The position numbers and the translations under genes are program-made. The notes under the pieces are model-generated. The model did not search any database. It saw only the letters and a program-made list of their open reading frames with translations, and had not been told where the DNA came from. This document shows positions 21,899 to 56,988 of a DNA stretch of 64,000 bases, one piece after another. Source of the stretch: Bacteroidota bacterium. GTDB lineage: Bacteria > Bacteroidota > Bacteroidia > 2-12-FULL-35-15. The stretch is from the NCBI GenBank assembly GCA_016707685.1, contig JADJHE010000003.1:5934-69933 (forward strand). The letters are read 5' to 3'. Positions within the stretch are counted from its first letter, which is position 1, and every line of letters starts with the position of its first letter.

Positions 21899-22629
21899 AT
21901 GAAAGCAATTATTGTTGAAGATGAAAAGAAAGGACAAGAGATTCTCTCTTCTTTAATTTTAAAATACTGCACCGATGTAGAAATTATTGGAATGGCCGAC
22001 AATGCGGAGGACGCTTATTTGCTGATAAAAAAAATGAAACCCGATGTTGTGTTTTTAGACATTGAAATGCCCAAAGGGAATGGGTTTTATTTACTAGAAA
22101 AATTCGACAAAATAAATTTTCAAATCATTTTTACAACCGCTTACGATAATTATGCAATAAAAGCGATTAAGTACCATGCATTGGATTATTTACTAAAACC
22201 AATTGATATTGATGAGCTAAAGCAAGCTGTTGAGAATGTTAAAAAGGCATTGTTAAAGCCAGAGAATACAAGGTACATCGATTTTTTAACAACACGTAAA
22301 TTAGATTTTGAAAATCGATTAGGCCTGCCTGTAAAGGATGGAATCATGTACCTTCAGGTGGCAGACATAATTCGCATTGAGTCAGACGGAAGCTATTCAA
22401 CCATTTATTTATCAAAATCACAGAAACATGTAGTGTCCAAAAATTTAAAAAGAGTATGAAGATGTTTTACCGGTAAAGGAGTTTTTTAGGGTACACAAAT
22501 CACATTTAATAAATATTAAAAAAGTAAAAAAATACGTTCGTCAAGATGGTTATTTTGTGGAAATGGAAGACGGAAGCCAAGTAGAAATAGCACGAAGAAA
22601 GAAAGACGAGTTTTTACAGACCATGAACT
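21899..22629 (+). CDS. LytTR-family response regulator (REC plus LytTR DNA-binding domain); frameshift at an A5 run near 22447-22451
   Basis: REC domain (…VVFLDIEMPKGNGF…). The LytTR domain continues out of frame (…KEYEDVLPVKEFFRVHKSHLINIKKVKKYVRQDGYFVEMEDGSQVEI…). Confidence 0.85.
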
Positions 22630-24398: not shown

Positions 24399-24803
24399 TT
24401 ATTTTATCAGCACCCCTTTTTTATTAATGTAGGGTACCAGAATAAAATTTTCTTCTTTGATTGTTTCGGGAAGGAAAATGTATTTTTTATCATACATCAC
24501 ATTGTCTTGAAAAAAGCTAACCCAGTATTCGTTGTTTAAGCCAAAAACAGATTCGTCAATAGGTTCTATTTTAGAAAAGCTTTTTGCTTTTACAACATCT
24601 AAAAAATGACGAAGGGTTGATGTTTTTACCTCTTCTCCGTTATGTAGTCCATATCCATGCGAGGTAGACAAAACGCCTTCAATGTCTTGCTTTTTTAGAT
24701 TAATTAAATAGACATTCCAAATTTTTTCTGCAAGCTCATTCTCCTCTTGAACAACAGCAACAGCAATATCTTCAACAATAGGAGGGGCAATATCTTTTTT
24801 CAT
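24399..24803 (-). CDS. Hypothetical cytoplasmic protein (134 aa)
   Basis: No signal peptide and no recognisable motif. Immediately upstream of, and co-oriented with, the CHAP-like gene. Confidence 0.5.
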   Translation of the reverse strand: MKKDIAPPIVEDIAVAVVQEENELAEKIWNVYLINLKKQDIEGVLSTSHGYGLHNGEEVKTSTLRHFLDVVKAKSFSKIEPIDESVFGLNNEYWVSFFQDNVMYDKKYIFLPETIKEENFILVPYINKKGVLIK

Positions 24804-24832: not shown

Positions 24833-25996
24833 TTAGTTACCGTACATTTCAAGTGCAGCATCTAAATAATACATTACATCTTTTGGTGTTTCGTTGCCAG
24901 TTGGTTTTTCTCTTTTTTTACCCAAGCGTACCACTACCATTTTTTTATCAGGAATACACAAAATGTATTGACCAAGTATACCACGAGCATAAAAAATGTT
25001 TTTCATTTTATAATCAGGAATTAACCACCAAGCATATCCATAGCGCTGATTGCGGCCACCTTCGTCAGCTAAATCAGCAGGAATAATTGAGTTCATTACA
25101 AACTCTTGGTTGATTAATTGGTTGCCATTCCATTTACCAGAATCTAAGTAGAGTTGACCAATACGAGCAAAGTCGGGGGCATTAGCGTTAAAACAACAAT
25201 AAGCTTTTTCCATGCCATCCTTGTGGTCAAGGCTCCATTGTGCTGCATTTTTTGCACCCAAGGGTTTCCATAGTTTTTCTGACATGTATTCACTCAGCGT
25301 TTTGCCCGTTACTTTTTCTATAATCATTCCTAAAAGCTCAGAGTTTCCACTCAAATATTTGAATGTTTTGCCGGGTTCATCTTGTGCTTCATAGCCAAGT
25401 GTTAATTCCTTTATTTCGCTGCCATAATAAGCTTGTGCTGGATAAGCAAGTGGGTTTACATAATCTTCGTCAAAATTGATTCCAGAGCTCATGGTTAACA
25501 AATGTTTGATGGTAATGTTGGCATTCTTTCCTTCTTTAAACTGTGGAAAAAAATCGCCAATGGGCTGGTCTAGACTTTTGATTTTTCCTTCGTCAATAGC
25601 AGCTCCAATTAAAATTCCAACAAAGGTTTTTGCCATAGAAAAAGAGTTGCTGTGCGAATCGGCATCATAACCATCCCAATATTGTTCGTGGATAATAGAA
25701 TCGTTTTTAATAATTACATAAGCAACGGTTCCTAAATCAGTAAAATTTTTTTCGAGTGTTGCAGGTATTTTCGATGAATTGTAACGTGTAGATTTTTTCC
25801 AAGCAAGGTAATTCCCTGCCTTTACTTCTCTGTTTTCGAATATTTGATACTCATCGATACTTGGGCCTGGTCGGCCTTTCAAATAGGTATTTGCGATGCC
25901 TTTGTATAAATAGGTTTTGCCGGAAACAAGGATTGCAATGTTCAATATTACCAAAATGATTAAAAACCATTTTCCGATTTTTTTCAGAATTTTCAT
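24833..25996 (-). CDS. Serine hydrolase of the beta-lactamase / transpeptidase superfamily
   Basis: SxxK motif (SFSMAKTF) and a class-C-like fold. The N-terminal TM anchor starts at MKILKK… The longer ORF start at 26056 would run into the terminator hairpin. Confidence 0.8.
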   Translation of the reverse strand: MKILKKIGKWFLIILVILNIAILVSGKTYLYKGIANTYLKGRPGPSIDEYQIFENREVKAGNYLAWKKSTRYNSSKIPATLEKNFTDLGTVAYVIIKNDSIIHEQYWDGYDADSHSNSFSMAKTFVGILIGAAIDEGKIKSLDQPIGDFFPQFKEGKNANITIKHLLTMSSGINFDEDYVNPLAYPAQAYYGSEIKELTLGYEAQDEPGKTFKYLSGNSELLGMIIEKVTGKTLSEYMSEKLWKPLGAKNAAQWSLDHKDGMEKAYCCFNANAPDFARIGQLYLDSGKWNGNQLINQEFVMNSIIPADLADEGGRNQRYGYAWWLIPDYKMKNIFYARGILGQYILCIPDKKMVVVRLGKKREKPTGNETPKDVMYYLDAALEMYGN

Positions 25997-26043
25997 ACCA
26001 AATAATTTATAATTCAAAAATACACCAATAATTGAAATAAAAA

Positions 26044-26071
26044 ACGCCTCGTCCATTATTGGACGAGGCGT
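26044..26071. terminator. Bidirectional rho-independent terminator
   Basis: aaaaACGCCTCGTCCattattGGACGAGGCGTtttagg. Confidence 0.65.
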
Positions 26072-26089: not shown

Positions 26090-29000
26090 TTATTTAGTAA
26101 TCACTAATTTTTGAACAACATTTTTATTTTCTGTTTTAACGGTTAGGAAATATGTTCCAGCGTTAATGTTTTCAGTATTTAAAGAAACAATTTGTCCTTG
26201 TGCAACATTTTGAATTGTTGATGAAGAAACCGTTCTTCCTGTTACATCTGTAATTGAAATGATAGAACCATTTGCAATTGCAGCATCAAATCTTACGTTT
26301 ACTTGACCATTTGCAGGGTTTGGATATACTGCAATTGTGTTTTCAACTGTTGTGTTATTTATTCCTGTAACATTTCCAACAGTTGCAGTAACCGTGTCAC
26401 GAACGCTTGTACAAGCTATTGATGGTCCTTCAATTTGGATGTCGTAAAAATAGTAATAAACAGTTGTTCCTTGATTTGATCCTGTTAATGTCACATATCC
26501 ATTCAATACATATGGATAAGCCGTTCCTTGGTTGCTTCTAAATAATTTTGGAGCAACAGAACCTAAGTTTGTTTGGTTAACAGTTGTGTTTGTTGTTAAA
26601 CGATAAGCTGTTCCAACATTTAATGACCAGTTAAGCGTTACTACTGTTGTGTCTGCAGGTAAAGCAATTGACAAAGAGTTGATAACTGTTCCAACAGAAT
26701 TTTTCAATTGAATTTCACGTGTTCCAGCAACATCTGTGTATACTTTAACAGTTTTTAATGTACAAGTTCCTAATACATCAAAATCAACAGATCCATTTGT
26801 TGTAGTTGAATAGTTGTTTGTTCCTTGGAAAAATTCTGGACCAACACCATTAACTGCTCCTGGGTAGTTGAATGATTCCTCAACGAAATAATTTGTTGTT
26901 GTACTAATTACCGGTGTTGTGTAATTAGCGCCAGTAGCTAATAATGTTCCACCAACCGCTTGGTTATACCAAGTAATGTTTGAACTATTAGTACCAGTAG
27001 CGGTTAAGTTAAATGATGTTGGAGTTGCACTTGTTTGGTCAACTCCAGCAGGAGCTGGTGATGTGCTAACAGTAACAGCTGTTGGCGCAGCATTAAATGC
27101 AGCACAAGTTCCTTGAATTGTTAAGTTGTAAGTTCCAGATGTTGGAGGGTTAATAGATTGAGTCGTTGCAGTAAATCCGTTTGGACCCGTCCAAGTATAT
27201 CCAGCAGCAGCAGTACTAGAAAGTGTTAGTGTTCCTTGGCAAGTATTTGCTCCAGATTGACTAACGGTTGGTGTTTCGTCTGGGTTTAATACAACTGCTA
27301 CTGTTGGAGAAACGTTTGTACAAGCACCATTAGATACTAATACGTTAAAGTTTCCTGTTGTAGATGTTGTTACGGATTGCGTTGTTGCTCCTGTATTCCA
27401 GTTGTATGATGAAAAACCGTTATTAGCAGTCAATGTTAATGTTTGGCTAGTACACAAGTTGTATGGACCAGGGATTGTGTTGTTTGTAATACTACAAGTT
27501 CCTTCTACAGAAGAAACAAACTGATCAGCATTCAATGAACCAAAGTTTGTTGTTAAACCAGATGGCCAATCGATACGAGCAGAGTCAATTGTTGTGTTTG
27601 TTCCCAAACCAAAGTGCAAGTTAAACGAGTTAACAGTACCATAGCTTTCGCCAGCACGCACTTCACGAATTTGTGTTCCAAATGCTCCGTAGATTGTAAC
27701 ACGTGCACCAATTGCATCGTGATTACTAACTGTTCCTGTTAAAGCAAATGTAATAAAGTGGTTTGCATTTTTATTGTTTAAATACAAAACATCGTTTGTT
27801 GATCCTGGGCTGTTATAGATATCGCCATAAGAAGCGAAAATATCAGCGAATCCATCGTGATTTAAATCACCACAAGCAAATGAAACCATTCCGCCTGTTT
27901 GTGACATACCAGCGTTACCAACCAATGTAAATGTTTTGTTTCCATTGTTTTTGTATAAAACAAAGTTTGATCCAGTAACGAAAATATCTACAAATCCATC
28001 GTTATCAAAATCTTCGAAGAATGATTCGATTGGTTGTGATCCTGCGCCAGTGGTAGAGAAACCAGTTGTTGCTGTAATATCTGTAAAGTTTCCAGAGCCA
28101 TCGTTTTCAAAAATTTGACTTGCTATATCATGGTTAGTAACCATTAAATCAAAATCGCCATCATTGTCAATGTCACCGTAGCTTCCTGTCCAAGTTTGGT
28201 TAAAATCTCCCGCTTCAATTCCATGTGCAGAAGCCATATCGGTGAAGTTTCCGTTTCCATCGTTTACGAACATTCTGTCTTTTCTTCTTAAGTCAGTAAC
28301 GCTAGATGATGCTTGACGGCAATGAGCAACATAAAAATCCAAATCACCATCATTATCAAAATCTAACCAAGCGCTTCCGTAGTTACCAGAATCTGCAGGG
28401 TCGCCACCATAAGTTGCTGTGCTTATTTGGTGATTAAAAACAATGTTTGGATGTACTGACCAAGTTGGGTGTGTTCCTGATCCTACAACCGAAGTAACAT
28501 TTACAACCATAGCACCTGTTCCTGAGTTATAAGAAGTAACAGTACCTGTCATGTATTTTGTTCCATCATAACCAACCTTTACGGTTTGACCATTTGTAAA
28601 ACTTAAGCCCGTTTGTACGGTTAAACTTTTTGAACCAGTTCCAATAGTCATTGAAGTTGTTGAATGTGCTAAAAACTGTAAATTTCCAGCGCCATCATTC
28701 ATATAAACTTTAGCGTAGGCATTATCATCGCACACATATACATCATCCCATCCATCATTATTAAAATCTCCACAAGTTATATTTTGTGTAAAAAAATTAG
28801 AGTTAGATAGCGTAGTTTGTGTTTTTACAACAGCAGAACCGTTCCAAGAAAGTTTTGCTAAATAAACACTTCCATTTGGACCAGTAACAACATCTTTCCA
28901 TCCATTGTGGTCGAAGTCGGCAACAGCCATTCCCCAAACGCCAGAACCAGAAACGTTTCCAACGTTGTAAGAAGTAAAGTTGCCATTTCTAGCTTGTAAA

Positions 29001-29215
29001 TCAACCCATAGCGTTGTTGATTGATCCATACGAACGATATCATCTAATCCATCGTTGTTTACATCCACTACAGTAACACAGTTTCCACTGCGCATGCTTG
29101 TAGGGGTTAATCGAGAGTTTGAATTTGTAAATCCAAACTGTGCGTTTGCGTTTAACGCTCCAATCACAAGACCAGAGCCTAATGCAACCGTACGCATAAA
29201 AGTAAATTTATTCAT
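26090..29215 (-). CDS. FG-GAP/VCBS repeat plus ASPIC/UnbV domain protein (CRTAC1-like) with T9SS C-terminal sorting domain
   Basis: Signal peptide, repeated …DVNNDGLDDIV… / …DFDNDGDLDFYV… FG-GAP repeats and an …ARIDWPSG… ASPIC/UnbV-like segment. The C-terminus is …AVYPNPANGQVNVRF…YFLTVKTENKNVVQKLVITK. Confidence 0.8.
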   Translation of the reverse strand: MNKFTFMRTVALGSGLVIGALNANAQFGFTNSNSRLTPTSMRSGNCVTVVDVNNDGLDDIVRMDQSTTLWVDLQARNGNFTSYNVGNVSGSGVWGMAVADFDHNGWKDVVTGPNGSVYLAKLSWNGSAVVKTQTTLSNSNFFTQNITCGDFNNDGWDDVYVCDDNAYAKVYMNDGAGNLQFLAHSTTSMTIGTGSKSLTVQTGLSFTNGQTVKVGYDGTKYMTGTVTSYNSGTGAMVVNVTSVVGSGTHPTWSVHPNIVFNHQISTATYGGDPADSGNYGSAWLDFDNDGDLDFYVAHCRQASSSVTDLRRKDRMFVNDGNGNFTDMASAHGIEAGDFNQTWTGSYGDIDNDGDFDLMVTNHDIASQIFENDGSGNFTDITATTGFSTTGAGSQPIESFFEDFDNDGFVDIFVTGSNFVLYKNNGNKTFTLVGNAGMSQTGGMVSFACGDLNHDGFADIFASYGDIYNSPGSTNDVLYLNNKNANHFITFALTGTVSNHDAIGARVTIYGAFGTQIREVRAGESYGTVNSFNLHFGLGTNTTIDSARIDWPSGLTTNFGSLNADQFVSSVEGTCSITNNTIPGPYNLCTSQTLTLTANNGFSSYNWNTGATTQSVTTSTTGNFNVLVSNGACTNVSPTVAVVLNPDETPTVSQSGANTCQGTLTLSSTAAAGYTWTGPNGFTATTQSINPPTSGTYNLTIQGTCAAFNAAPTAVTVSTSPAPAGVDQTSATPTSFNLTATGTNSSNITWYNQAVGGTLLATGANYTTPVISTTTNYFVEESFNYPGAVNGVGPEFFQGTNNYSTTTNGSVDFDVLGTCTLKTVKVYTDVAGTREIQLKNSVGTVINSLSIALPADTTVVTLNWSLNVGTAYRLTTNTTVNQTNLGSVAPKLFRSNQGTAYPYVLNGYVTLTGSNQGTTVYYYFYDIQIEGPSIACTSVRDTVTATVGNVTGINNTTVENTIAVYPNPANGQVNVRFDAAIANGSIISITDVTGRTVSSSTIQNVAQGQIVSLNTENINAGTYFLTVKTENKNVVQKLVITK

Positions 29216-29284
29216 GTTGGGGTAAATAAATTGGTTAATAATTAGTTATCAATTGTTTAGAGAATACTAAAGGAAACAAAAAAA

Positions 29285-31228
29285 TTATGATTTAACAACT
29301 TTTTTGGTGATTATTTTATTTCCGGTTCTTATTTTTATGTAATAAACACCTCTTGCGTTCGGAAGGTAAAAGTTGAATTCCGATTGATAATTGGTGTTGT
29401 AAATAGCACTAACTCGCGCACCAGAAGACGAAAACACCTCAATGTTTTTAATTAATTCGCCATATTGAGCACTTATAAATACTTGGCCATCCATTGAAAT
29501 GCTTGGCCAAACGTTTATTGTATTCACAGAATTAGCTGCAATTCCAGTAACAGTGTTGTTTAAGCTATCAACTCCAACTAAAAAAGGAGTTTGGTCAGCA
29601 TTTTGAAACATTGTTTTAAAAGTGTTGATTGGTGTGCTGTTGAAAGCAAACATTTCGTCTGTATATTTTGGAGGAACAGATTGGTAATACACTTTTGCTT
29701 TTGCTTGCATGCTTCCACTAAATCCATTTAGTGGAACTCTATAGTGAACATAGTCCATTCCAGACCCCTCTACAGCATTTGTTTTATTAAAATCATCATC
29801 AGAAATTGCAGCACCAACAATTTTAACAGTATCGTAGGTGCTGTGAGCTGTTGTAAATCCTAATGGTGGAATTCTATTATCTTTTAATTGTGCGGCAGCT
29901 CTTTCTAAAACGGTTGTTACGTTTGAATTTACATCGCCCATTACCATCTCATAAATTTGAGGAACATTGTTTTGATTGATTATGTTATGATGTACTTCAA
30001 ACGGATTCGTTTCGCCAACAACACGGTAGGTGTTTGTAAATGTTCCTGATTTAAAAAGGGTGTCATTGTTTGTCCCCGTTACAATAAACTGAACAACGGC
30101 TCTGCGAGAAGGATAACCAGAAGGGAACTTGTGTCCTGTTTTGTTTTTTAGTTTCACTCTAAAATAAGCGGTATCGTTTATTGTGCTGTCTAAAAACAGG
30201 TTTATGTCAAGCGATTGAAGTTTTAACATGTTAGATGTTGCTACAAGTGTAGAGTCGAATTTGGCATCATCTGCATTTACGCCTAATGCCACCTTGTTGT
30301 TTTTAATCAAGTTGAGCATAAAATAATTTGCTCCAGCAAATGTGTGTTGATTAAAAGGAAACCTTCCCTGTAGTGAAAGAATGCCATTCGAGATAACAAT
30401 TGGTTCGTTTATTTTAGGCATGTGGCATGATTGACAAGTGGTGGTAGTTCCTGAATAGCTGGAGTTTAAATATTCGTGGTAGGTTGCTTGTTCAACAAAT
30501 TCGCCACCGGTTAAATTGCCCGACAAATCAGCCGTTTGGGTAATTAGTGTATGGCAAGAAGAACACATTCTTGCTTTGCTCACATGGTTACTAAATGTTG
30601 GAGTTATTCCTTCATACAAAACCATTGGTCCAGTAAACGGACTTCCAAATGGACCATATTCAACATGGTTTGTATCGTAAGGAATTTCTCCAGAAAAGGT
30701 TGAGCCAACACTCGGATCAATCATATGACAAGATCCACAAGCAACACCATCGAGGCCAAGCGAGTCGGTTTCTAAATCATTCATTCCATAATATTGTTGA
30801 CCATGAAACATGGCTGTATATCTTCCCATTGGCGCATGACAAGAAGTACATTTGTTTTGTAGTTCGGCAGCATGTGCAGGATTAACTAATATTTCATGAC
30901 TAACTTTCGCTCTCCATAAAGGATCTTTTGCACTAAGTGCCATCATCGATGTTTGCCAACGATCAACAAGGTTTACATCACTACCATCTTCTAATATATT
31001 TGCTTGATGAATAGAGTCGTAACCATGACAACCACTACAGTGAGAAGAGTGTAAAAAATATTCCCCAGCTTCAATTGGAGCCCTTTTAAATCGGTCTTTT
31101 AAAGCAGTTAGCTCATCTTCAGAATGAAAAGATTTTTTTGTAGTTTTTGAAGTTGCCGAGTTCAAAAAATAAAAGCCAATTGCAAAAGCAGTTAGCAATG
31201 TTATGGTGGTAATTTTTTTAATCTTCAT
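29285..31228 (-). CDS. Pentahaem c-type cytochrome with T9SS C-terminal sorting domain
   Basis: Sec signal. Five CxxCH motifs (CSGCH, CTSCH, CGSCH, CSSCH, CQSCH) lie within the first ~270 aa, then a ~380-aa haem-free region, ending in a T9SS-type tail (…GVYYIKIRTGNKIITKKVVKS). It lies 70 bp upstream of the FG-GAP/ASPIC gene. Confidence 0.8.
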   Translation of the reverse strand: MKIKKITTITLLTAFAIGFYFLNSATSKTTKKSFHSEDELTALKDRFKRAPIEAGEYFLHSSHCSGCHGYDSIHQANILEDGSDVNLVDRWQTSMMALSAKDPLWRAKVSHEILVNPAHAAELQNKCTSCHAPMGRYTAMFHGQQYYGMNDLETDSLGLDGVACGSCHMIDPSVGSTFSGEIPYDTNHVEYGPFGSPFTGPMVLYEGITPTFSNHVSKARMCSSCHTLITQTADLSGNLTGGEFVEQATYHEYLNSSYSGTTTTCQSCHMPKINEPIVISNGILSLQGRFPFNQHTFAGANYFMLNLIKNNKVALGVNADDAKFDSTLVATSNMLKLQSLDINLFLDSTINDTAYFRVKLKNKTGHKFPSGYPSRRAVVQFIVTGTNNDTLFKSGTFTNTYRVVGETNPFEVHHNIINQNNVPQIYEMVMGDVNSNVTTVLERAAAQLKDNRIPPLGFTTAHSTYDTVKIVGAAISDDDFNKTNAVEGSGMDYVHYRVPLNGFSGSMQAKAKVYYQSVPPKYTDEMFAFNSTPINTFKTMFQNADQTPFLVGVDSLNNTVTGIAANSVNTINVWPSISMDGQVFISAQYGELIKNIEVFSSSGARVSAIYNTNYQSEFNFYLPNARGVYYIKIRTGNKIITKKVVKS

Positions 31229-31317
31229 TTTAATAGGGGTATTGTGCTACTAACAAATGTAATAAAATACAATTGGAAAAGAAATTTGTTGACGAAAATC
31301 AGTTTTGGAGAAAAAAT

Positions 31318-31347
31318 AAAGCCTTCCGAACCCCTTCGGAAGGCTTT
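31318..31347. terminator. Hairpin terminator downstream of the porP/sprF-like gene
   Basis: aaaGCCTTCCGAAccccTTCGGAAGGCttt. Confidence 0.6.
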
Positions 31348-31382: not shown

Positions 31383-32435
31383 TTAAATACGAGATTTAAA
31401 ATGTTTGTTTCCAAACATGGATGGATATACCCAACGCAAGGAGATTTCGAATCCACCTCTAGCGGAAGAAGCAACTTTTAATTTGGATAAGTTAACATCA
31501 TAACTAAATCCAATGCAGTAGTTAGAGTATTCAAATTTTGCGATAGCAATGAATGCATCTTGCAAACGGTAATATGCTCTCAACGAAAAAGCAGAAGATT
31601 TTTTTAAGCCAGTGTATTTTGAGCCCTCTTGCAAAACATATTGAAATGTCATTCCTGGATTAACCTCTGTTGTTGCACCTTGTAGAAAAACAATATAAGA
31701 CGGTTTTAGAATTAAATTACTATTTGGCATTCCAATCGAAGCATTACCATTTAAAACAATTTTCATACTTAGTCGCTCTCCTGCTCCATAAAAGGAATAA
31801 GCAGGGCGGTGAGGATGAAAAACAGCAACACCTAAGCTTATTTTTCTTGCATTATTTGCAGAAATGTATGCTTCGTCTGTACCATAATTGTATTGTAATC
31901 CAGCACCCAAATCGAACATGGTGAAGCTTCCTGGCAGACTTGATTCCCCTGTTGCAGCAGCAGCATCATAGTTTGTTCCATTGTATTGATTGCCCCATGT
32001 TAGTTTAGATGCATTCATGCTTCGTTGTCCAAAACCAGCAACAATGCCTCCCGACAAAATACTTTTATCGTTTAGATTAATCAGTCCTGCAATGGATAAG
32101 TTTACTTGGTTTGAACCAAGTGAGGCATCACCTGCTTTGTCGCTGAAAAAATCGAGGCCCAAGCCGAGGTGATGTTTTTTGTTTTTTAATAAACGTGCAT
32201 CAAAGGAAAATGCATAGGTTCGATAAGGAGAACCAATGCTTTGCCATTGATTTTTAAAATTAAGAATTGCCCTTACCTCGTGTTGAACGCCAACTGTTGC
32301 AGGGTTAAGCTGAACAGGTGTTTCATCAAACTGAGAAAAGTGGATGTCCTGAGCCGTTGTTGTATTTGCAAATGCAAAGACAGCAAAAGCCCATGTTGTA
32401 ATTTGTAAAAACGATTTTTTGTTTTTTTTGTACAT
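31383..32435 (-). CDS. PorP/SprF family T9SS outer-membrane β-barrel protein
   Basis: Signal peptide and the family N-terminal motif …AQDIHFSQFDETPVQLNPA… Length 350 aa. Positioned immediately downstream of a type-B CTD adhesin gene, as in sprB-sprF pairs. Confidence 0.8.
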   Translation of the reverse strand: MYKKNKKSFLQITTWAFAVFAFANTTTAQDIHFSQFDETPVQLNPATVGVQHEVRAILNFKNQWQSIGSPYRTYAFSFDARLLKNKKHHLGLGLDFFSDKAGDASLGSNQVNLSIAGLINLNDKSILSGGIVAGFGQRSMNASKLTWGNQYNGTNYDAAAATGESSLPGSFTMFDLGAGLQYNYGTDEAYISANNARKISLGVAVFHPHRPAYSFYGAGERLSMKIVLNGNASIGMPNSNLILKPSYIVFLQGATTEVNPGMTFQYVLQEGSKYTGLKKSSAFSLRAYYRLQDAFIAIAKFEYSNYCIGFSYDVNLSKLKVASSARGGFEISLRWVYPSMFGNKHFKSRI

Positions 32436-32545: not shown

Positions 32546-35500
32546 TTATTTAATTAGTGTAATGTTTCCTTGTTTTGTTACTTCTTGTCCGTTTACCATT
32601 GCTGTTAGGTAATAAACAAAAACAGCAGCATCTAATTTTTTTCCCCTGAATGTTCCATCCCAACCATATGCAGCGTCTTTTGTTTCAAATACTTTTTCTC
32701 CCCATCTATCATAGACAAAAAACTCTAAATTGGTAATACAGTTACCCATTACATAAACAAAATCGTTTTGTCCATCTTCGTTGGGCGAGAATGCGGTTGG
32801 AACAAATAGTTCCCCGCAAACAACATCTACATAAACAATAACCGTATCGCTTCCAGTGCAACCATTTTGACTAGCAGTAAGAATATAAATTGTAGTTTGT
32901 GTTGGCGATGCCAATGGGTCTTCACATGTTGTGCAGCTTAATCCTGTAGAAGGAGTCCATAAAACAGTTGCTCCAGAAGGAACAGTGCCGTTTAGTTGAG
33001 TGCTTGTTCCAGAAATAATAGTAACATCTGTTCCTGCATTAACACCAGAAAGATTTCCTGTTACACCTACCGTTCCAGAGCTTGTAGCAGTACAACCATC
33101 AACATCTGTAATGGTAACAGTATAAGTTCCTGCAGCCAATGCAGTAATTGTACTTGTAGTAGCACTAGTGCTCCACGTTGGGCTTAACACACCATTTCCG
33201 CCAGTAGCATTTACTGTTGCGGTTCCATCGCTGTTTCCGCATGTTGCAGGTGTTGTTGATACGTTTGCTGAAATAGCTGCTGGCTGTGTGATTGTAACCG
33301 TTGTAGCATTTGAACAGCCTGTTCCATCTGTAGCCGTAACAGTATATGTTCCTGCGGCAAGGTTGCTTATAGAAGCACCACTAACGCTACCCGGCATCCA
33401 GTTATAGGTAATGGTTCCTGTTCCACCAGTTGCACTTGCTGTTGCGCCCCCATTGTTTCCTCCGTTACATAAAACGTTGGTTTGTGAGGATATTGAAATA
33501 GTTGGACCGCCACTACTTGCAACAATTCCTGTTGCTGTTGCAGTACAGCCGTTTGCATCGGTAGCGGTTACTGTGTATGTTCCTGCTGATAAATTGCTAG
33601 CAGCAGCTCCACTAATGCTACCTGGCATCCAGTTGTAGGTTATTGTGCCTGTTCCGCCCGTTGCGCTTGCTGTTGCTGTTCCTGTGCTGCTTCCGCATGT
33701 GGTGGGTGTTGTTCCTGTTACTGAAACAGAAACGGCACTTGCTGGTTGGGTAATTGTAACAGTTGTTGTTCCTGCACAACTACCTCCATCGGTAGCGGTT
33801 ACTGTGTATGTTCCTGCGGCTAATCCTGTTTGCGATGCACCAGTTAAGCTACCCGGCATCCAATTGTAATTTATAGTTCCCGTTCCTCCTGTTGCCGTAG
33901 CAGTTGCTGCACCTGTATTTTGACCGAAACAAAGAATATTTGTTTGTGAACTAATGCTAGCCGTTGGACCTCCAGTATTAGAAATAGAGACTGTTGTTGT
34001 TGCAGTACACCCGTTTCCATCTGTGCTAGTTACAGTGTAAGTTCCTGAAGCTAATGCAGATTGTGATGCTCCTGTTAAGCTACCTGGCATCCAGTTGTAA
34101 GCAATGGTTCCTGTTCCGCCAGTTCCGTTGGCAGTAGCAGCACCATTGTTACTTCCGCAACTTGCTGGTGTGCTGCTTGAAATAGAAACTGCAACAGCAG
34201 ATGCAGGTTGAGTAATTGTTATGGTTGTGGTTCCTGTACAACTGTTTGCGTCTGTTGCAGTAACGGTGTATGTTCCAGCGGCTAAACCTGTTTGAGAAGC
34301 CCCTGTTAAACTTCCTGGCATCCAATTGTACGTATATGCTGTTGTACTACCAGATGCACTTGCCGTTGCCGTTCCTGTACTTTGTCCGAAACACAAAACA
34401 TTTGTTTTAGCGGGGTTGGTAACGGTGATTGTAGGACAAACAGTAGCGTTACAAGCAGGAATACCAGTAAGGGTTGTAATTGTAAGAATACTTCCTGCGT
34501 TGTCTGTTACTTGAATTGGTTGAGCAGGAAAAGATGCTGGTAGGGTTCCTGAGTTTGTTGTTGATGAAAATGTTGTCCAGAATGCAGGTGTATTACATGT
34601 AGTAGCTGGTAAGCTGTTTACTAAACAAATGTTTACAAAAGGAGTCCAAGACCCGCCACAAGCAGTACATTGAGCCGAATTGGTTATTGGCGAGCTAGAT
34701 GCCGGGGTGAAAAATTGCCAGTTGTATGGGTTTACACCATTTGAAACCGTTAATGATCCATTTGTTTCTTGACAAACAGAAAGAGCAACACAGGGTGAAA
34801 CAACAATTGTAATCGATTCGTTTCCACAAGCAAGTGTGTAGCTAATAGTATGTGTTCCAACACCAGCAGTAGCTGGATTGAAAAGTCCCGTTGTTGGATT
34901 TACTCCAGGTCCACTAAAAGTTCCGCCAGGTGTTGCTACAACAAGCGTAACAGGTGTTGCATTTTGACATAATACACCTGGATTACAAATGGTAGCATCA
35001 CAACAAATTAATGATAATGGAGCAGCAGCAGTCATGTTCACAACCTGAACCGTTCCAGTTCTTGCTCCAGTAGTTGTAGAGGTGCCTGTTGATCCACAAG
35101 CAACAACATCACCACCAGAAATAACATGAACATCATAAACTCTGTAAGTTGTAGCTACGGATGAAATAACATTTAAGTTGCCATCGTATTTTACAATTGC
35201 GTTCCCAGAACCAACGTAAACGTTTCCAGAAGCGTCAATATCTAAACCGCTATTTTGAACTTGGCTTCCACCAAACCCGCCACCAGCGATAGCAGCAGTA
35301 GCAATTATTGCCCCTGTTGCAAAGTCGCGCTTGTGTACTTGATTTCCTTTGTGAGTGTATAAAAAGCCATTAAAATACCTTATGGCCATAATTCCGGAGT
35401 TATCTTTTCTCCAGTTTTCACATTTGTATCCTAATCCATAGGAGTTTGTAGTGTGGAATGCTGCAGAAGATCCAGAAGGGCAAAGACTAAAGTTTTGAGA

Positions 35501-36862
35501 AATATACCCAATTGAATCGTGTGTTAAATAAGCAAACTTACCATTGCCACATGCTGCTATAGATCTAACTTCCTGTGTTGGGAAAAGCTGTCCACCTGTA
35601 ACCTGAACACTAGCGGTAATATTTCCACTATTTACGTCCACATCGTAGATATAAGGCAATGGCGGCAAAAATCCACCTGTTCCACCAATAACCAATTTAG
35701 ATTGGTCGCAGTTAAAAGAGATGTTCCAAAACTCGGTCGATGTAAAAATACCGCCAGGACTTCCATTGTTCCAAACTACTGCACCAGCATTGTTTACTTT
35801 TACAATTGCAGCAGCCGAGCCTTGTGTAACATAAGAGTTTCCAAGATTGTCAGTAGCAAATGTTCCTAACCATGCAGAGGTGTCGTATGGGGTATTGTAG
35901 GTCCACTGAAGTGCACCAGTTGAATTATATTTTATCAGCTGCATTGGTGTAACACCTCCAATGATATAAATGTTCCCTGCTCCATCTTTTTCACACTCCC
36001 AAACACAATCCCAAGCAGTTGCAAAGTTTGGTGTTTGTGTCCACGGATCAATAATTACCGTTTGTGTATTATCGTATTTACCCAATGTAAAAGAAACGAT
36101 ATTCCCCTTTTTTGTAAAACGAGAAGAAATAATTGACTTTTTATTGTTTCCGTAAAATGTTAATGGTGCATGATCAACAATATCTCCATATTTTGTTGGG
36201 ATATGGATTGCTTTTTCTATTATCGAAGGATTTTTAGAATAAGCCATTTTAATTTTTGACGCATCAGCTCCAGGGTGAAGAATAAAGGCATACTTAATAC
36301 CCGATTCAGAGTGAAAGGTGTATTCTACATCTATATTTGGATACAGATTTTTATAAGTTATTTTTTTATATGCTTTTACATGATCAACACTTTTGTTTAC
36401 TCCGTTTTCTTTGAATGAATAAGAGTGATAGTCGGGCGTTTCTTCTTCTGCTACAATCTGAACAGCAGGATTTGCATCCACCCAGTTCATTGGAATTACA
36501 TCCGTAGAGTATTCAACTTTTCTTCCCTCGTCTTCAAATTCTTTAAACTCCTCAGCACTTGTAAAACCCTTTATTTTTCTTTCTTGACGCTCTTCTTTGT
36601 TCGTCTCTTTTTGCCAAACATTTAAAAAGCTGTATACTAAACCTTTTTTAGTAAAGTAAATTTTTGTAGATCCATGATCCATTGCAAACGCAACTGTTTC
36701 TTGGCTTCCATCGATTTGAAACTGTCCTTTGTTTTCAATAAAAGCTTTTGTTTTATCGTATTTAGCAGTCCATTTTGCTAAGGCGCTGTTTTGTGCTTTT
36801 GCGCTGATTGCGAATGTAAAAACAAAAAGAAGTTTGAATATAAAATTAGGTCTTAGTCCCAT
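32546..36862 (-). CDS. SprB-like cell-surface repeat adhesin with gliding-motility-associated (type B) T9SS C-terminal domain
   Basis: Signal peptide MGLRPNFIFKLLFVFTFAISAKAQ. At least five tandem ~77-aa SprB-type repeats (…GTGTITYNWMPGSLTGASQ…GTYTVTATD…). C-terminal …FSPNEDGQNDFVYVMG…YDRWGEKVFE… is the type-B CTD hallmark. Confidence 0.8.
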   Translation of the reverse strand: MGLRPNFIFKLLFVFTFAISAKAQNSALAKWTAKYDKTKAFIENKGQFQIDGSQETVAFAMDHGSTKIYFTKKGLVYSFLNVWQKETNKEERQERKIKGFTSAEEFKEFEDEGRKVEYSTDVIPMNWVDANPAVQIVAEEETPDYHSYSFKENGVNKSVDHVKAYKKITYKNLYPNIDVEYTFHSESGIKYAFILHPGADASKIKMAYSKNPSIIEKAIHIPTKYGDIVDHAPLTFYGNNKKSIISSRFTKKGNIVSFTLGKYDNTQTVIIDPWTQTPNFATAWDCVWECEKDGAGNIYIIGGVTPMQLIKYNSTGALQWTYNTPYDTSAWLGTFATDNLGNSYVTQGSAAAIVKVNNAGAVVWNNGSPGGIFTSTEFWNISFNCDQSKLVIGGTGGFLPPLPYIYDVDVNSGNITASVQVTGGQLFPTQEVRSIAACGNGKFAYLTHDSIGYISQNFSLCPSGSSAAFHTTNSYGLGYKCENWRKDNSGIMAIRYFNGFLYTHKGNQVHKRDFATGAIIATAAIAGGGFGGSQVQNSGLDIDASGNVYVGSGNAIVKYDGNLNVISSVATTYRVYDVHVISGGDVVACGSTGTSTTTGARTGTVQVVNMTAAAPLSLICCDATICNPGVLCQNATPVTLVVATPGGTFSGPGVNPTTGLFNPATAGVGTHTISYTLACGNESITIVVSPCVALSVCQETNGSLTVSNGVNPYNWQFFTPASSSPITNSAQCTACGGSWTPFVNICLVNSLPATTCNTPAFWTTFSSTTNSGTLPASFPAQPIQVTDNAGSILTITTLTGIPACNATVCPTITVTNPAKTNVLCFGQSTGTATASASGSTTAYTYNWMPGSLTGASQTGLAAGTYTVTATDANSCTGTTTITITQPASAVAVSISSSTPASCGSNNGAATANGTGGTGTIAYNWMPGSLTGASQSALASGTYTVTSTDGNGCTATTTVSISNTGGPTASISSQTNILCFGQNTGAATATATGGTGTINYNWMPGSLTGASQTGLAAGTYTVTATDGGSCAGTTTVTITQPASAVSVSVTGTTPTTCGSSTGTATASATGGTGTITYNWMPGSISGAAASNLSAGTYTVTATDANGCTATATGIVASSGGPTISISSQTNVLCNGGNNGGATASATGGTGTITYNWMPGSVSGASISNLAAGTYTVTATDGTGCSNATTVTITQPAAISANVSTTPATCGNSDGTATVNATGGNGVLSPTWSTSATTSTITALAAGTYTVTITDVDGCTATSSGTVGVTGNLSGVNAGTDVTIISGTSTQLNGTVPSGATVLWTPSTGLSCTTCEDPLASPTQTTIYILTASQNGCTGSDTVIVYVDVVCGELFVPTAFSPNEDGQNDFVYVMGNCITNLEFFVYDRWGEKVFETKDAAYGWDGTFRGKKLDAAVFVYYLTAMVNGQEVTKQGNITLIK
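33160..34545. repeat. Intragenic tandem DNA repeats, period 231 bp, at least five or six units (SprB-type protein repeats)
   Basis: cctggcatccaRttgta recurs at 33389, 33620, 33851, 34082 and 34313 at exactly 231-bp spacing. Plus-strand shadow ORFs 33168/33411/33645 repeat the same peptide (…PGIQL). Confidence 0.75.
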
Positions 36863-37037
36863 GCGTTTTTTGTTGAGTGTAAATATTATCCAACTCAAAA
36901 ATAAATTAGAAAAACAGTATCCAATAAAAAAATCCAAACATTATTGGAAGTCTGATATGTACCATTTAAAAATAAATCCTATATTTATCAGTATGTTTAT
37001 TATACAAAAACGATTTTATTATTATAAATGAGTAGCC

Positions 37038-56342: not shown

Positions 56343-56984
56343 ATGAAAAAATTAATTACAGTAATTGCAGTAACGTTAATTTCGTTTACTGGATTTTCGC
56401 AAGCATTTAAGTTTGGAACAATCACAGCCGATTTAGGAACCGGTTTTGGTATTTATGGAATCCGTGCGTATTCACCAATAAATCAATCTGAACATTCTGG
56501 AATTGGCTTTGTTGGCTCTTTACCAATTGTGAATGCGGAATTTGGATTAACCAAATTTTTAGGAATTGGCGGTCGTTTTCGCAGAGGAACATACGGCAAA
56601 AGTGGAATAAACAAGTTGAGAGGCAATGATATGATGCTTCGTCTGAATTTTCATGTTGCTAACAAAAACGACAAATTCGACTTAGCTATTGGTGCTGGCT
56701 ATGGGTTAAGCTCTTTTGGAGGAGATATTAGCGACACGGAATATTTAAGAACAAAGGGCAGTGTTTTAAACATTCATGTTACTCCGCATTTGTATTTTGG
56801 AAAATATGTTGGAATGTTTTTGAGTGTTGGATACAACAAGCATATGTTGAATAGAAACATTGAGATGAAAGACAGTGCTGGTAAAGTATGGACCAATGCA
56901 GATGGCGCTACTTGGAATATGGGTGGTGTTTATTTTGAATTTGGTGTTGCCGGACGATTTGATTTGTTTAATAAAGGAGAATAG
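56343..56984 (+). CDS. Outer-membrane β-barrel (porin-like) protein
   Basis: Signal peptide MKKLITVIAVTLISFTGFSQA. Alternating hydrophobic β-strands. The C-terminal aromatic terminus (…GRFDLFNKGE) is weak. Confidence 0.5.
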   Translation: MKKLITVIAVTLISFTGFSQAFKFGTITADLGTGFGIYGIRAYSPINQSEHSGIGFVGSLPIVNAEFGLTKFLGIGGRFRRGTYGKSGINKLRGNDMMLRLNFHVANKNDKFDLAIGAGYGLSSFGGDISDTEYLRTKGSVLNIHVTPHLYFGKYVGMFLSVGYNKHMLNRNIEMKDSAGKVWTNADGATWNMGGVYFEFGVAGRFDLFNKGE

Positions 56985-56988
56985 TATT

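What the first reader, a model, noticed from the sequence alone, without database searches (positions are those of the whole stretch)
29285..31228. Pentahaem c-type cytochrome fitted with a type IX secretion (T9SS) sorting domain
The 647-aa product has a Sec signal peptide and five canonical CxxCH haem-attachment motifs (CSGCH, CTSCH, CGSCH, CSSCH, CQSCH) packed into the first ~270 residues. A ~380-aa haem-free region follows. The C-terminus has the same β-sandwich tail pattern as the other T9SS cargo proteins in this window (…GVYYIKIRTGNKIITKKVVKS). T9SS cargo are exported across the outer membrane and usually anchored to the cell surface. That predicts a surface-displayed multihaem cytochrome in a Bacteroidota, which would be a candidate outer-surface redox or extracellular electron-transfer component. 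Multihaem cytochromes are normally periplasmic or use other export routes, so this combination is unusual.
Basis: partly seen in the sequence, partly recalled or inferred. Interest (0 to 1): 0.75.

Follow-up and report, generated by a model that had tools for sequence, protein, structure and literature searches.

The report
T9SS-exported pentahaem cytochrome with partner
A Bacteroidota gene encodes a five-haem cytochrome carrying a genuine type IX secretion tail, so it is probably delivered to the cell surface, an export route not described for multihaem cytochromes in the literature searched; it belongs to a large uncharacterised branch of a known cytochrome fold, and what it does outside the cell is unknown.

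Summary

The region without haem motifs is not independent of the haems. It supplies invariant His366 and His413 and a conserved loop.

The family is very large, with at least 595 species genomes. Different phyla fit the same core with different surface anchors: T9SS CTDs in Bacteroidota, Ignavibacteria and Calditrichota, and lipoprotein signals, dockerin or MYXO-CTERM-like tails elsewhere.

In this sub-clade the gene forms a terminator-bounded operon with an FG-GAP/UnbV β-propeller that is also T9SS cargo (63 of 69 loci).

Surface display is well supported. A role in respiratory extracellular electron transfer is not shown.

The parts
29285..31228 (-). Gene for the 647-aa pentahaem c-type cytochrome with a T9SS CTD (stop codon 29285-29287)
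   Evidence: ORF list and translation; more than 3000 homologues
31151..31228 (-). Sec-type signal peptide (residues 1 to about 26), no lipobox
   Evidence: Sequence inspection; modelled as a single helix 3-26; 0 of 40 close homologues have a lipobox Cys
30215..31081 (-). α-helical pentahaem domain (residues about 50-338)
31025..31039 (-). Haem 1 motif CSGCH (residues 64-68)
   Evidence: Invariant in 149 of 149 sequences
30941..30943 (-). Met96, in S-M-M-A; it aligns with the distal His of S-[MI]-H-A in MccSep (His74) and T. tepidum c552, so it is a predicted His/Met haem ligand
   Evidence: Met in 148 of 149 sequences; alignments to 5ze8_A and 9wt8_A
30836..30850 (-). Haem 2 motif CTSCH (residues 127-131); counterpart of the MccSep active-site haem (proximal His122)
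30725..30739 (-). Haem 3 motif CGSCH (residues 164-168)
30551..30565 (-). Haem 4 motif CSSCH (residues 222-226)
30488..30493 (-). Invariant Glu246-Gln247 in the segment that carries the haem-2 ligand Cys239 in MccSep; this family has no Cys, His or Met conserved here
   Evidence: MccSep numbering
30422..30436 (-). Haem 5 motif CQSCH (residues 265-269)
29543..30214 (-). Ig-like β-sandwich domain (residues about 339-562), containing invariant His366 and His413
30101..30136 (-). Loop G365-H-K-F-P-S-G-Y372-P-S-R-R376; homologous to the MccSep loop A-G-H-S-I-P-D-G-U325-P. Tyr372 occupies the Sec position
   Evidence: Profile alignment to 9wt8_A and 5ze8_A; His366, Lys367, Pro369, Pro373, Arg375 and Arg376 are invariant in 149 sequences
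29288..29518 (-). T9SS type A C-terminal sorting domain (residues about 571-647)
31254..31261 (-). TACATTTG, a match to the Bacteroidetes -7 promoter element TAnnTTTG, 25 nt upstream of the ATG (inferred promoter)
   Evidence: Sequence; the consensus is recalled from established knowledge and was not tested
31318..31347 (-). Intrinsic terminator (13-bp stem plus T run) that ends the upstream PorP/SprF transcript
26090..29215 (-). Co-transcribed partner of 1041 aa: FG-GAP repeats, UnbV_ASPIC, Ig_7 and a T9SS type A CTD
   Evidence: Pfam; TIGR04183 45 bits; directly downstream of the cytochrome gene in 63 of 69 loci with enough flank and in L001-L004
26041..26074 (-). Intrinsic terminator (15-bp stem) that closes the two-gene operon
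   Evidence: no terminator-like site in the 69-bp gap 29216-29284

Best explanation
The gene encodes a holo-pentahaem c-type cytochrome that is made as a Sec precursor and loaded with five haems in the periplasm. Its C-terminal domain is then recognised by the type IX secretion system, which moves the protein across the outer membrane to be attached to the cell surface or released. The core has the 'pentahaem cap plus Ig-like stem' fold of T. tepidum cytochrome c552 and MccSep/ExtKL. By homology the five haems form a close-packed branched chain. Four distal ligands are predicted: Met96, His295, His366 and His413, the last two coming from the Ig-like domain. The fifth haem (haem 2, CTSCH) sits at the interface of the two domains, beside the invariant loop GHKFPSGYPSRR and the Glu246-Gln247 pair. 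The protein does not use MccSep's Cys/Sec chemistry. It is co-transcribed with a second T9SS cargo, a Ca-binding-type FG-GAP/UnbV β-propeller. Most likely the two act together outside the cell as an extracellular redox module: the propeller binds or positions a substrate or surface, and the cytochrome passes electrons to or from it, with haem 2 as the probable reactive site.

Shown here: the gene, the motifs, their conservation, the CTD identity, the fold, the operon and the distribution. Inferred: haem loading, actual secretion, the ligand assignments, the partnership and the direction and substrate of electron flow.
For: Haem sites: five CxxCH use all 10 Cys, with 0.005 expected by chance, and they are invariant in 149 homologues.

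T9SS context: a PorP/SprF gene, a type B cargo and two further type A cargoes lie in the window.

Surface theme across phyla: the same core carries a T9SS CTD in at least 56 of 133 representatives. 51 have no tail, and the remaining tailed ones include single cases of Soli_cterm, a MYXO-CTERM-type tail, dockerin and a choice-of-anchor domain. 74 of 106 tail-less relatives have a lipobox, against 0 of 40 CTD-bearing proteins.

Redox-module theme: the core is fused to PQQ-dependent sugar dehydrogenase propellers in Phycisphaerae.

Operon: strong terminators lie before and after the pair and none between them. The partner is directly downstream in 63 of 69 loci.
Against: No experiment shows secretion, haem content or activity for any CTD-bearing member.

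No source of electrons at the surface is identified. No other cytochrome, porin-cytochrome or quinol dehydrogenase gene is linked to the gene in any of the contexts read, apart from an unlinked cytochrome about 6 kb away in L090.

The partner has no haem motif and no recognisable cofactor site; its conserved residues are mainly Asp/Asn/Gly Ca-type loops. A redox partnership is therefore guilt by association. More divergent CTD-bearing members are solitary genes.

The ligand assignments and the special status of haem 2 rest on alignment and conservation, not on geometry. His215 (124 of 149) or Met202 (148 of 149) could be the fifth distal ligand, which would make all five haems six-coordinate.

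The Pfam CTD model is below its threshold.
Confidence: 0.55

Rival explanations
1. It is the outer-surface terminal reductase or oxidase of a respiratory extracellular electron transfer pathway, working like MtrC/OmcA. Electrons from the quinone pool reach it through periplasmic carriers and an outer-membrane conduit and are passed to Fe(III), Mn(IV), humics or electrodes (or the reverse).
For: It is a predicted surface multihaem cytochrome. It gives weak sub-threshold similarity to MtrC/MtrF pentahaem domains (PF22113 29.4 bits vs 30; TIGR03507 matched by 19 of 41 members at E no better than 4.6e-7). CTD-bearing relatives occur in Ignavibacteria, Calditrichota and Prolixibacteraceae. Ignavibacteria were reported to increase in Fe(III)-dosed wastewater plants (PMC11495043). 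The PHC family has been linked to archaeal cytochrome nanowires (PMC11976967).
Against: No porin-cytochrome, periplasmic multihaem or quinol-oxidase gene is linked to it in nine contexts. The close clade comes mostly from lake-water, reservoir, glacier-stream and activated-sludge MAGs. Met96 replaces a His ligand, which by general cytochrome knowledge raises the potential, unlike the low-potential bis-His haems of metal reducers. Five haems on a covalently tethered T9SS cargo do not span the outer membrane.
Confidence: 0.2
2. It is an exported enzyme of the MccSep type, a polysulfide or selenite reductase working at the cell surface.
For: The fold is homologous to MccSep/ExtKL, with the same five haems and the same Ig-domain loop next to haem 2.
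Against: Both residues shown to be essential in MccSep are absent. There is no Cys outside the CxxCH motifs, so no Cys239 ligand. Tyr372 (Phe, Tyr or Ile in relatives) occupies the Sec325 position. The NF040886 score is 19.7 bits against a cutoff of 250.
Confidence: 0.04
3. It stays in the periplasm as an ordinary soluble cytochrome, and the C-terminal β-sandwich is a vestigial or non-sorting Ig-like domain.
For: The Pfam Por_Secre_tail score is below its gathering threshold (20 vs 27 bits). The characterised members of the fold (T. tepidum c552, MccSep) are soluble periplasmic proteins.
Against: TIGR04183 scores above its cutoff in the query and matches 41 of 41 homologues. The structural matches to translocon-bound CTDs are tight, at 1.6-2.0 Å. 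The tail sits at the extreme C-terminus and keeps the PxP...GxY...K pattern. Relatives outside T9SS phyla replace it with lipoprotein or other surface anchors rather than simply losing it.
Confidence: 0.06
4. It has a non-catalytic role: a surface haem or iron store, a haemophore-like device or an electron 'capacitor', or a redox sensor, with the FG-GAP protein acting as an adhesin.
For: The partner looks like a Ca-binding adhesin-type propeller with no cofactor site. T9SS cargoes include the haem-binding protein HBP35, which appears among the Foldseek hits, probably through its CTD (5y1a).
Against: Covalent c-type haem cannot be donated. The Glu246-Gln247, Lys367 and Arg375-Arg376 positions around the predicted haem-2 region are invariant in all 149 aligned sequences, which come from several phyla, and this argues for a specific chemical function. 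The fusions to PQQ dehydrogenases argue for electron transfer.
Confidence: 0.1

Closest known systems
Thermochromatium tepidum low-potential pentahaem cytochrome c552 (PDB 5ZE8)
   Different: c552 is a 385-residue soluble periplasmic protein with no CTD. The window protein's core is about 190 residues larger. c552 has S-M-H-A where this protein has S-M-M-A (His to Met). It has Ala at the position of Tyr372. No function has been assigned to c552 (PMC11976967).
MccSep / ExtKL of Geobacter sulfurreducens (PDB 9WT8; NCBIfam NF040886)
   Same: It has the same pentahaem cap plus Ig-like stem. The loop from the Ig domain (A-G-H-S-I-P-D-G-U-P) is homologous to G-H-K-F-P-S-G-Y-P, and the S-I-H-A motif is homologous to S-M-M-A.
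   Different: MccSep is a periplasmic homotetrameric polysulfide/selenite reductase whose haem 2 is His/Cys239-ligated, with Sec325 as the nucleophile. The window protein has neither residue, scores 19.7 vs 250 bits, is about 150 residues longer in the core, and carries a T9SS CTD.
'Large pentahaem cytochrome' (lPHC) group of the PHC family, e.g. GSU2801 and the cable-bacteria lPHCs (PMC11976967)
   Same: It is a pentahaem PHC fold with an enlarged cytochrome domain, which is the closest published description of the window protein's core size class.
   Different: I could not obtain GSU2801 for a direct comparison. The published lPHCs are periplasmic, and some are fused to truncated haemoglobins. 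None is reported with a T9SS CTD.
MtrC/OmcA/MtrF outer-surface decahaem cytochromes of Shewanella
   Same: They are a functional analogue: multihaem cytochromes displayed on the outer face of the outer membrane, combining pentahaem domains with β-barrel domains. The sequence similarity is weak and sub-threshold.
Canonical T9SS type A cargoes (RemA, NucA, RgpB, mirolase)
   Same: The C-terminal roughly 75-residue β-sandwich is at the extreme C-terminus and superposes at 1.6-2.0 Å, and the protein has a Sec leader.
   Different: Known cargoes are proteases, glycosidases, nucleases and adhesins. In the searchable literature, no covalently haem-loaded c-type cytochrome has been described as cargo.

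Membership tests
T9SS type A CTD cargo | A C-terminal sorting domain at the extreme C-terminus, recognised by the curated model TIGR04183 | tested here: met
   33.6 bits vs cutoff 23, residues 585-646 of 647. 41 of 41 homologues match. The Pfam PF18962 model of the same domain is sub-threshold at 20 vs 27 bits.
T9SS type A CTD cargo | The CTD adopts the β-sandwich fold of solved CTDs | tested here: met
T9SS type A CTD cargo | An N-terminal Sec signal peptide for export to the periplasm | tested here: met
   A basic n-region plus a roughly 17-residue hydrophobic h-region with no lipobox, judged by inspection. No dedicated predictor was available.
T9SS type A CTD cargo | The host encodes the T9SS machinery | tested here: inconclusive
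   The window holds a PorP/SprF family gene (TIGR03519, 162 bits), a type B cargo and two more type A cargoes. GldH lies on the contig of an 82%-identical relative. The core genes sprA, porV and gldKLMN are not in the 64-kb window.
T9SS type A CTD cargo | T9SS-dependent secretion with CTD removal | not testable with these tools
   Needs fractionation or proteomics in wild type compared with a T9SS mutant.
PHC fold (pentahaem cytochrome plus Ig-like domain: T. tepidum c552, MccSep/ExtKL, GSU2801) | Five CxxCH motifs in an N-terminal helical domain | tested here: met
PHC fold (pentahaem cytochrome plus Ig-like domain: T. tepidum c552, MccSep/ExtKL, GSU2801) | A C-terminal Ig-like β-sandwich packed on the haem domain, with overall fold similarity to a solved member | tested here: met
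PHC fold (pentahaem cytochrome plus Ig-like domain: T. tepidum c552, MccSep/ExtKL, GSU2801) | The conserved G/P-H-x-x-P-x-G-x-P loop from the Ig domain and the W-x-x-S-x-[HM]-A motif after haem 1 | tested here: met
   Profile-to-sequence alignments with 5ze8_A and 9wt8_A; conservation.
MccSep (multihaem cytochrome c selenoprotein; NF040886 equivalog) | Score at or above the curated equivalog cutoff | tested here: not met
   19.7 bits vs 250.
MccSep (multihaem cytochrome c selenoprotein; NF040886 equivalog) | A Cys (C239) as distal ligand of haem 2, strictly conserved in the family | tested here: not met
   The protein has no Cys outside its five CxxCH motifs. The same holds at aligned positions in 149 homologues.
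MccSep (multihaem cytochrome c selenoprotein; NF040886 equivalog) | Sec or Cys at position 325 in the D-G-U-P loop | tested here: not met
   The aligned residue is Tyr372 (Tyr in 41 of 41 close homologues; Phe 75, Tyr 19, Ile 14 in relatives without a CTD). There is no in-frame TGA; the ORF is continuous.
MtrC/OmcA family outer-surface decahaem cytochromes (TIGR03507) | Ten haems, a lipoprotein signal, a score above the cutoff, and adjacent mtrAB-type porin-cytochrome genes | tested here: not met
   Five haems, no lipobox, 11.2 bits vs 209.3. The neighbours are PorP/SprF and FG-GAP/UnbV.
NrfA pentahaem nitrite reductase (PF02335) | A CxxCK active-site haem motif and a match to the family model | tested here: not met
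   There is no CxxCK. PF02335 is not among the hits for the query. PDB NrfA chains match the profile only at E 0.03-0.8, on the haem-5 motif.

The most novel reading that the evidence does not exclude
The type IX secretion system is a previously unrecognised export route for folded, haem-loaded multihaem cytochromes. It gives many uncultured lake, soil and sludge Bacteroidota (and Ignavibacteria and Calditrichota) a surface redox catalyst. In this reading the large-PHC core has one His/Met haem and a reactive haem-2 pocket lined by Glu-Gln, Lys, Tyr and Arg-Arg. Together with a dedicated FG-GAP/UnbV propeller it carries out extracellular redox chemistry, for example on iron, manganese, humic matter or reactive oxygen species, without any Mtr-type porin-cytochrome conduit.
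Probability: 0.3. Interest if true: 0.8.

Novelty: new variant of a known kind. Interest (0 to 1): 0.6.

Why it matters
Multihaem cytochromes at the cell surface underlie microbial metal respiration, electrode interaction and interspecies electron transfer. The known display routes are type II secretion of lipoproteins onto porin-cytochrome complexes, filament assembly, and cell-wall anchoring in Gram-positives.

A T9SS-delivered cytochrome would add a new route in a phylum that is abundant in lakes, soils and wastewater and is not usually considered electroactive. It would also extend the known cargo range of the T9SS to a protein carrying five covalently attached cofactors.

The family is large, with at least 595 species genomes, and is strongly conserved. 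Unrelated phyla fit the same core with different surface anchors, which argues that an external location is central to its function.

The finding also places thousands of 'hypothetical' or generically named proteins in the fold family of the recently solved MccSep enzyme. It shows that they must use different chemistry, and it gives a concrete, testable target: the haem 2 pocket, Met96 and the partner propeller.

Tried and rejected
- A single-sequence phmmer search of the PDB found nothing significant. Only the 149-sequence profile reached 5ZE8 and MccSep.
- The first AlphaFold run, with 41 close homologues, gave an unusable haem domain (pLDDT 59.9). It was replaced by a run with a deeper alignment.
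- An exact-sequence lookup of the window protein in the contig collection failed, so homologues were used instead.
- The AFDB Foldseek library was unavailable. Model coordinates are not exposed, so haem-haem distances and distal-ligand geometry could not be measured. Whether the five haems form a wire rests on homology to MccSep, where Fe-Fe distances are 9.5-11.8 Å.
- The 5ZE8 paper (PMID 29691716) is not held.
- MccSep-type chemistry was considered and rejected because both catalytic residues are absent.
- Membership of the MtrC/OmcA and NrfA families was considered and rejected on the membership tests.
- I looked for a conserved redox partner or conduit in nine genomic contexts. Only the FG-GAP/UnbV gene recurs, and only in the window's sub-clade. 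Relatives without a CTD sit in unrelated contexts, one of them beside a multicopper oxidase and CopB. Divergent CTD-bearing relatives are solitary.
- I looked for cofactor motifs in 58 partner proteins and found none.
- I looked for cultured carriers. All named hits are MAGs, and the cluster look-ups returned no organism names.
- Four literature searches for T9SS plus cytochrome found no precedent. This covers open-access papers and bioRxiv only.
Full report
**1. The observation**

The ORF at 29285..31228 is real but lies on the minus strand; the plus-strand reading is full of stops. It encodes 647 aa. Five CxxCH motifs begin at residues 64, 127, 164, 222 and 265. The protein has exactly ten cysteines and all ten are in these motifs. 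From composition, 0.005 such motifs would be expected by chance. The N-terminus (MKIKKITTITLLTAFAIGFYFLNSAT) has the basic and hydrophobic layout of a Sec signal and has no lipobox. This was judged by inspection because no predictor was available.

The last 62 residues score 33.6 bits against NCBIfam TIGR04183 (T9SS type A sorting domain, curated cutoff 23). The Pfam model of the same domain is sub-threshold at 20 vs 27 bits. Cytochrome_C7 passes its Pfam cutoff (33.4 vs 24.8), and the MtrC/MtrF pentahaem-domain model just misses its cutoff (29.4 vs 30).

**2. Conservation and distribution**

A word-indexed search found 3251 homologues. The best 120 are all about 650 aa, at least 55% identical, and come from Bacteroidota metagenome-assembled genomes. 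NCBI already names some of them 'T9SS type A sorting domain-containing protein'. In a 41-sequence alignment all five motifs are invariant, and all 41 members match TIGR04183.

The 80 loci kept are nearly all labelled Bacteroidota: Bacteroidia, Chitinophagales, Flavobacteriales and Saprospiraceae. They come from lakes, reservoirs, glacier streams, soil and activated sludge. Seventy-nine of the 80 loci keep five CxxCH; the one with four has a gene cut by the contig end.

An exhaustive HMMER search with the CTD removed found 2458 clusters at 50% identity with E of 1e-3 or better, and 522 with E of 1e-30 or better.

**3. The fold**

A single-sequence search of PDB sequences found nothing, and a shallow-alignment AlphaFold model was poor. 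I then built a 149-sequence alignment that adds distant relatives from Chloroflexota, Aquificota and Deferrisomatales. With it the model reached mean pLDDT 88.9 and pTM 0.78.

The model has four parts:
- a signal helix;
- a helical haem domain (about residues 50-338);
- an Ig-like β-sandwich (about 339-562);
- a short low-confidence linker followed by a separate β-sandwich (about 571-647).

The 149-sequence profile hits 5ze8_A at E 2.8e-8 through collinear haem motifs and a β-sandwich motif. It hits the Geobacter selenoprotein MccSep (9WT8) at E 0.0024. Independently, 35 of 41 close and 22 of 25 distant members give sub-threshold hits to the NCBIfam ExtKL model.

MccSep/ExtKL has just been characterised (bioRxiv 10.1101/2025.11.18.688581). 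It is a periplasmic homotetramer with a five-haem helical 'cap' and an Ig-like 'stem'. The haems are branched, with Fe-Fe distances of 9.5-11.8 Å. Haems 1, 3, 4 and 5 are bis-His. Haem 2 is ligated by His122 and Cys239 and lies next to Sec325, and the enzyme reduces polysulfide and selenite.

A cable-bacteria study (PMC11976967) groups ExtKL, T. tepidum c552 and the larger GSU2801 into a 'PHC' family, and relates it to an archaeal cytochrome nanowire. The window protein's core is therefore a large member of a known fold family. No experimental characterisation of any member of its own branch turned up in the papers I read.

**4. What is and is not conserved relative to MccSep**

The MccSep peptide T-N-H-A-G-H-S-I-P-D-G-U325-P-T-P-N-R aligns with K-N-K-T-G-H366-K-F-P-S-G-Y372-P-S-R-R. 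The Sec position is Tyr in 41 of 41 close homologues, and Phe, Tyr or Ile in relatives without a CTD. There is no cysteine anywhere outside the haem motifs, so the Cys239 ligand has no counterpart. With 19.7 bits against a 250-bit cutoff, the protein fails every defining test for MccSep membership.

The motif after haem 1 is S-I-H74-A in MccSep and S-M-H-A in T. tepidum c552. It is S-M-M96-A here, and Met is present in 148 of 149 family members. This predicts a His-to-Met ligand switch on one haem. By general cytochrome knowledge such a switch raises the reduction potential.

Only three non-motif histidines are invariant across all 149 sequences: His295, His366 and His413. The last two lie in the Ig-like domain. 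With Met96 these make four predicted distal ligands for five haems.

The segment that holds Cys239 in MccSep has no conserved Cys, His or Met here. Instead it has invariant Glu246-Gln247 and a conserved Tyr250. The facing loop has invariant Lys367, Arg375 and Arg376.

I infer that haem 2 keeps a special, possibly reactive, environment. This is inference from alignment only.

**5. The tail**

The window also encodes a PorP/SprF family protein (TIGR03519, 162 bits), a SprB-like type B cargo, and two further type A cargoes. The core translocon genes are not in the window.

**6. Surface anchoring is a family-wide theme**

I examined the 133 representatives whose core is complete. Of these:
- 37 match a CTD model built from this family;
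- 19 of a further 37 tailed ones that I scanned match TIGR04183;
- 51 have no tail;
- the others end in a Solibacter C-terminal domain, a MYXO-CTERM-type MtsC-like region, a dockerin or a choice-of-anchor domain.

A lipobox cysteine precedes the first haem motif in 74 of 106 tail-less relatives, and in 0 of 40 CTD-bearing ones. The divergent CTD-bearing branch includes Ignavibacteria, Calditrichota and Prolixibacteraceae, and one member carries a type B (CHU_C) CTD.

Fusions exist with PQQ-dependent sugar dehydrogenase propellers (Phycisphaerae), with F5/8-type C domains and with DUF642. The core therefore behaves as an extracytoplasmic redox module that lineages attach to the cell surface by whatever device they possess.

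**7. The operon**

A 13-bp-stem terminator at 31347-31318 follows the upstream PorP/SprF gene. A TACATTTG match to the Bacteroidetes -7 element lies 25 nt before the ATG. No terminator-like site lies in the 69-bp gap after the cytochrome gene. A 15-bp-stem terminator at 26074-26041 follows the next gene.

That next gene (26090-29215, minus strand) encodes a 1041-aa protein with FG-GAP repeats, UnbV_ASPIC, Ig_7 and a T9SS type A CTD. A homologue lies directly downstream on the same strand in 63 of 69 species loci that have at least 2 kb of flank. The same is true in three independently fetched contexts whose other neighbours differ.

The 58 full-length partners share a median of 47% identity. 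Their conserved residues are mainly Asp/Asn/Gly loops of the Ca-binding FG-GAP type, and they have no CxxCH and no evident cofactor site.

The pairing is specific to this sub-clade. Relatives without a CTD and divergent CTD-bearing relatives are solitary or sit in unrelated contexts. One published observation is loosely parallel: CRTAC1-type FG-GAP genes sit between genes for haem-protein homologues of hydrazine synthase in Planctomycetota (PMC12758564).

**8. Interpretation**

The best-supported account is a Sec-exported, periplasmically haem-loaded, T9SS-secreted pentahaem cytochrome that acts outside the cell together with a co-secreted β-propeller. I put about 0.85 on 'haem-loaded T9SS cargo' and about 0.55 on the fuller statement that includes the extracellular redox-module role.

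A respiratory, Mtr-like role in extracellular electron transfer gets about 0.2. It is not excluded, but it lacks any linked conduit, and the close clade comes largely from lake, stream and activated-sludge MAGs, whose oxygen regimes I did not check. MccSep-type chemistry is essentially excluded. Periplasmic retention and non-catalytic roles are minor rivals.

**9. Novelty**

Searches of open-access papers and bioRxiv found no paper containing both 'multiheme cytochrome' and 'type IX secretion'. Searches combining T9SS with c-type cytochrome terms also returned nothing relevant. A wastewater secretome survey noted predicted extracellular multihaem proteins in Bacteroidota in general terms, without mentioning the T9SS or this family (PMC11495043).

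The fold is known, so this is a new variant of a known kind. It has a large Sec/Cys-less PHC core with a His/Met switch, a T9SS sorting domain and, in this clade, a dedicated FG-GAP/UnbV partner.

Noticed in passing
window 31383-32435 (-) and 32546-36937 (-): A PorP/SprF family gene (TIGR03519, 162 bits) lies directly downstream of a 1463-aa SprB-repeat protein that has DUF7948 and a type B (CHU_C/TIGR04131) CTD. This is the usual pairing of a type B cargo with its own PorP/SprF-like protein. It is not conserved next to the cytochrome in relatives.
   Followed up: partly
window 56875-58683 (+): A 602-aa ELWxxDGT-repeat protein (TIGR04534, 220 bits) with a T9SS type A CTD, which is another cargo in the window.
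   Followed up: no
window 60929-62470 (-) and 62473-62859 (-): The DXP synthase ORF matches its N-terminal Pfam model only from profile position 123, starting at residue 1. A 128-aa ORF sits immediately upstream in another frame. The dxs gene may be split by a frameshift or a sequencing error.
   Followed up: no
window 24833-26056 (-) and 24399-24803 (-): A β-lactamase-family gene and a 134-aa ORF with no family match follow the cytochrome/FG-GAP pair here, and also in the 82%-identical relative (L001/L002). The operon terminator (26074-26041) overlaps the listed start of the β-lactamase ORF, so its true start is probably further downstream.
   Followed up: no
L087 5488-9671: A homologue of the cytochrome without a CTD lies directly after a three-domain multicopper oxidase gene and a CopB gene on the same strand. 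This hints at a link to copper or metal redox handling in that lineage.
   Followed up: no
P0191 and P0224 (Phycisphaerae and unnamed): The pentahaem core is fused C-terminally to PQQ-dependent glucose/sorbosone dehydrogenase propellers, in one case with an F5/8 type C domain between them. This looks like a built-in electron-acceptor module for an extracytoplasmic dehydrogenase.
   Followed up: partly
L003 7765-9077 and L089 3478-4709: A MamF_MmsF-family gene followed by a Peptidase_M48 gene lies a few kb upstream of the cytochrome gene in two otherwise different genomes (58% and about 33% identical homologues). This may be lineage synteny or a weak functional link.
   Followed up: no
P0413: One homologue carries a type B (CHU_C, PF13585) CTD in place of the type A CTD, which suggests that sorting domains have been swapped on the same cytochrome core.
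   Followed up: no
window 18963-21644 (+) and 21899-22459 (+): A Reg_prop/Y_Y_Y hybrid histidine kinase and a response regulator lie upstream of the region. A similar Reg_prop/Y_Y_Y protein (with SpoIIE) lies near the cytochrome in L001/L002. No link was tested.
   Followed up: no
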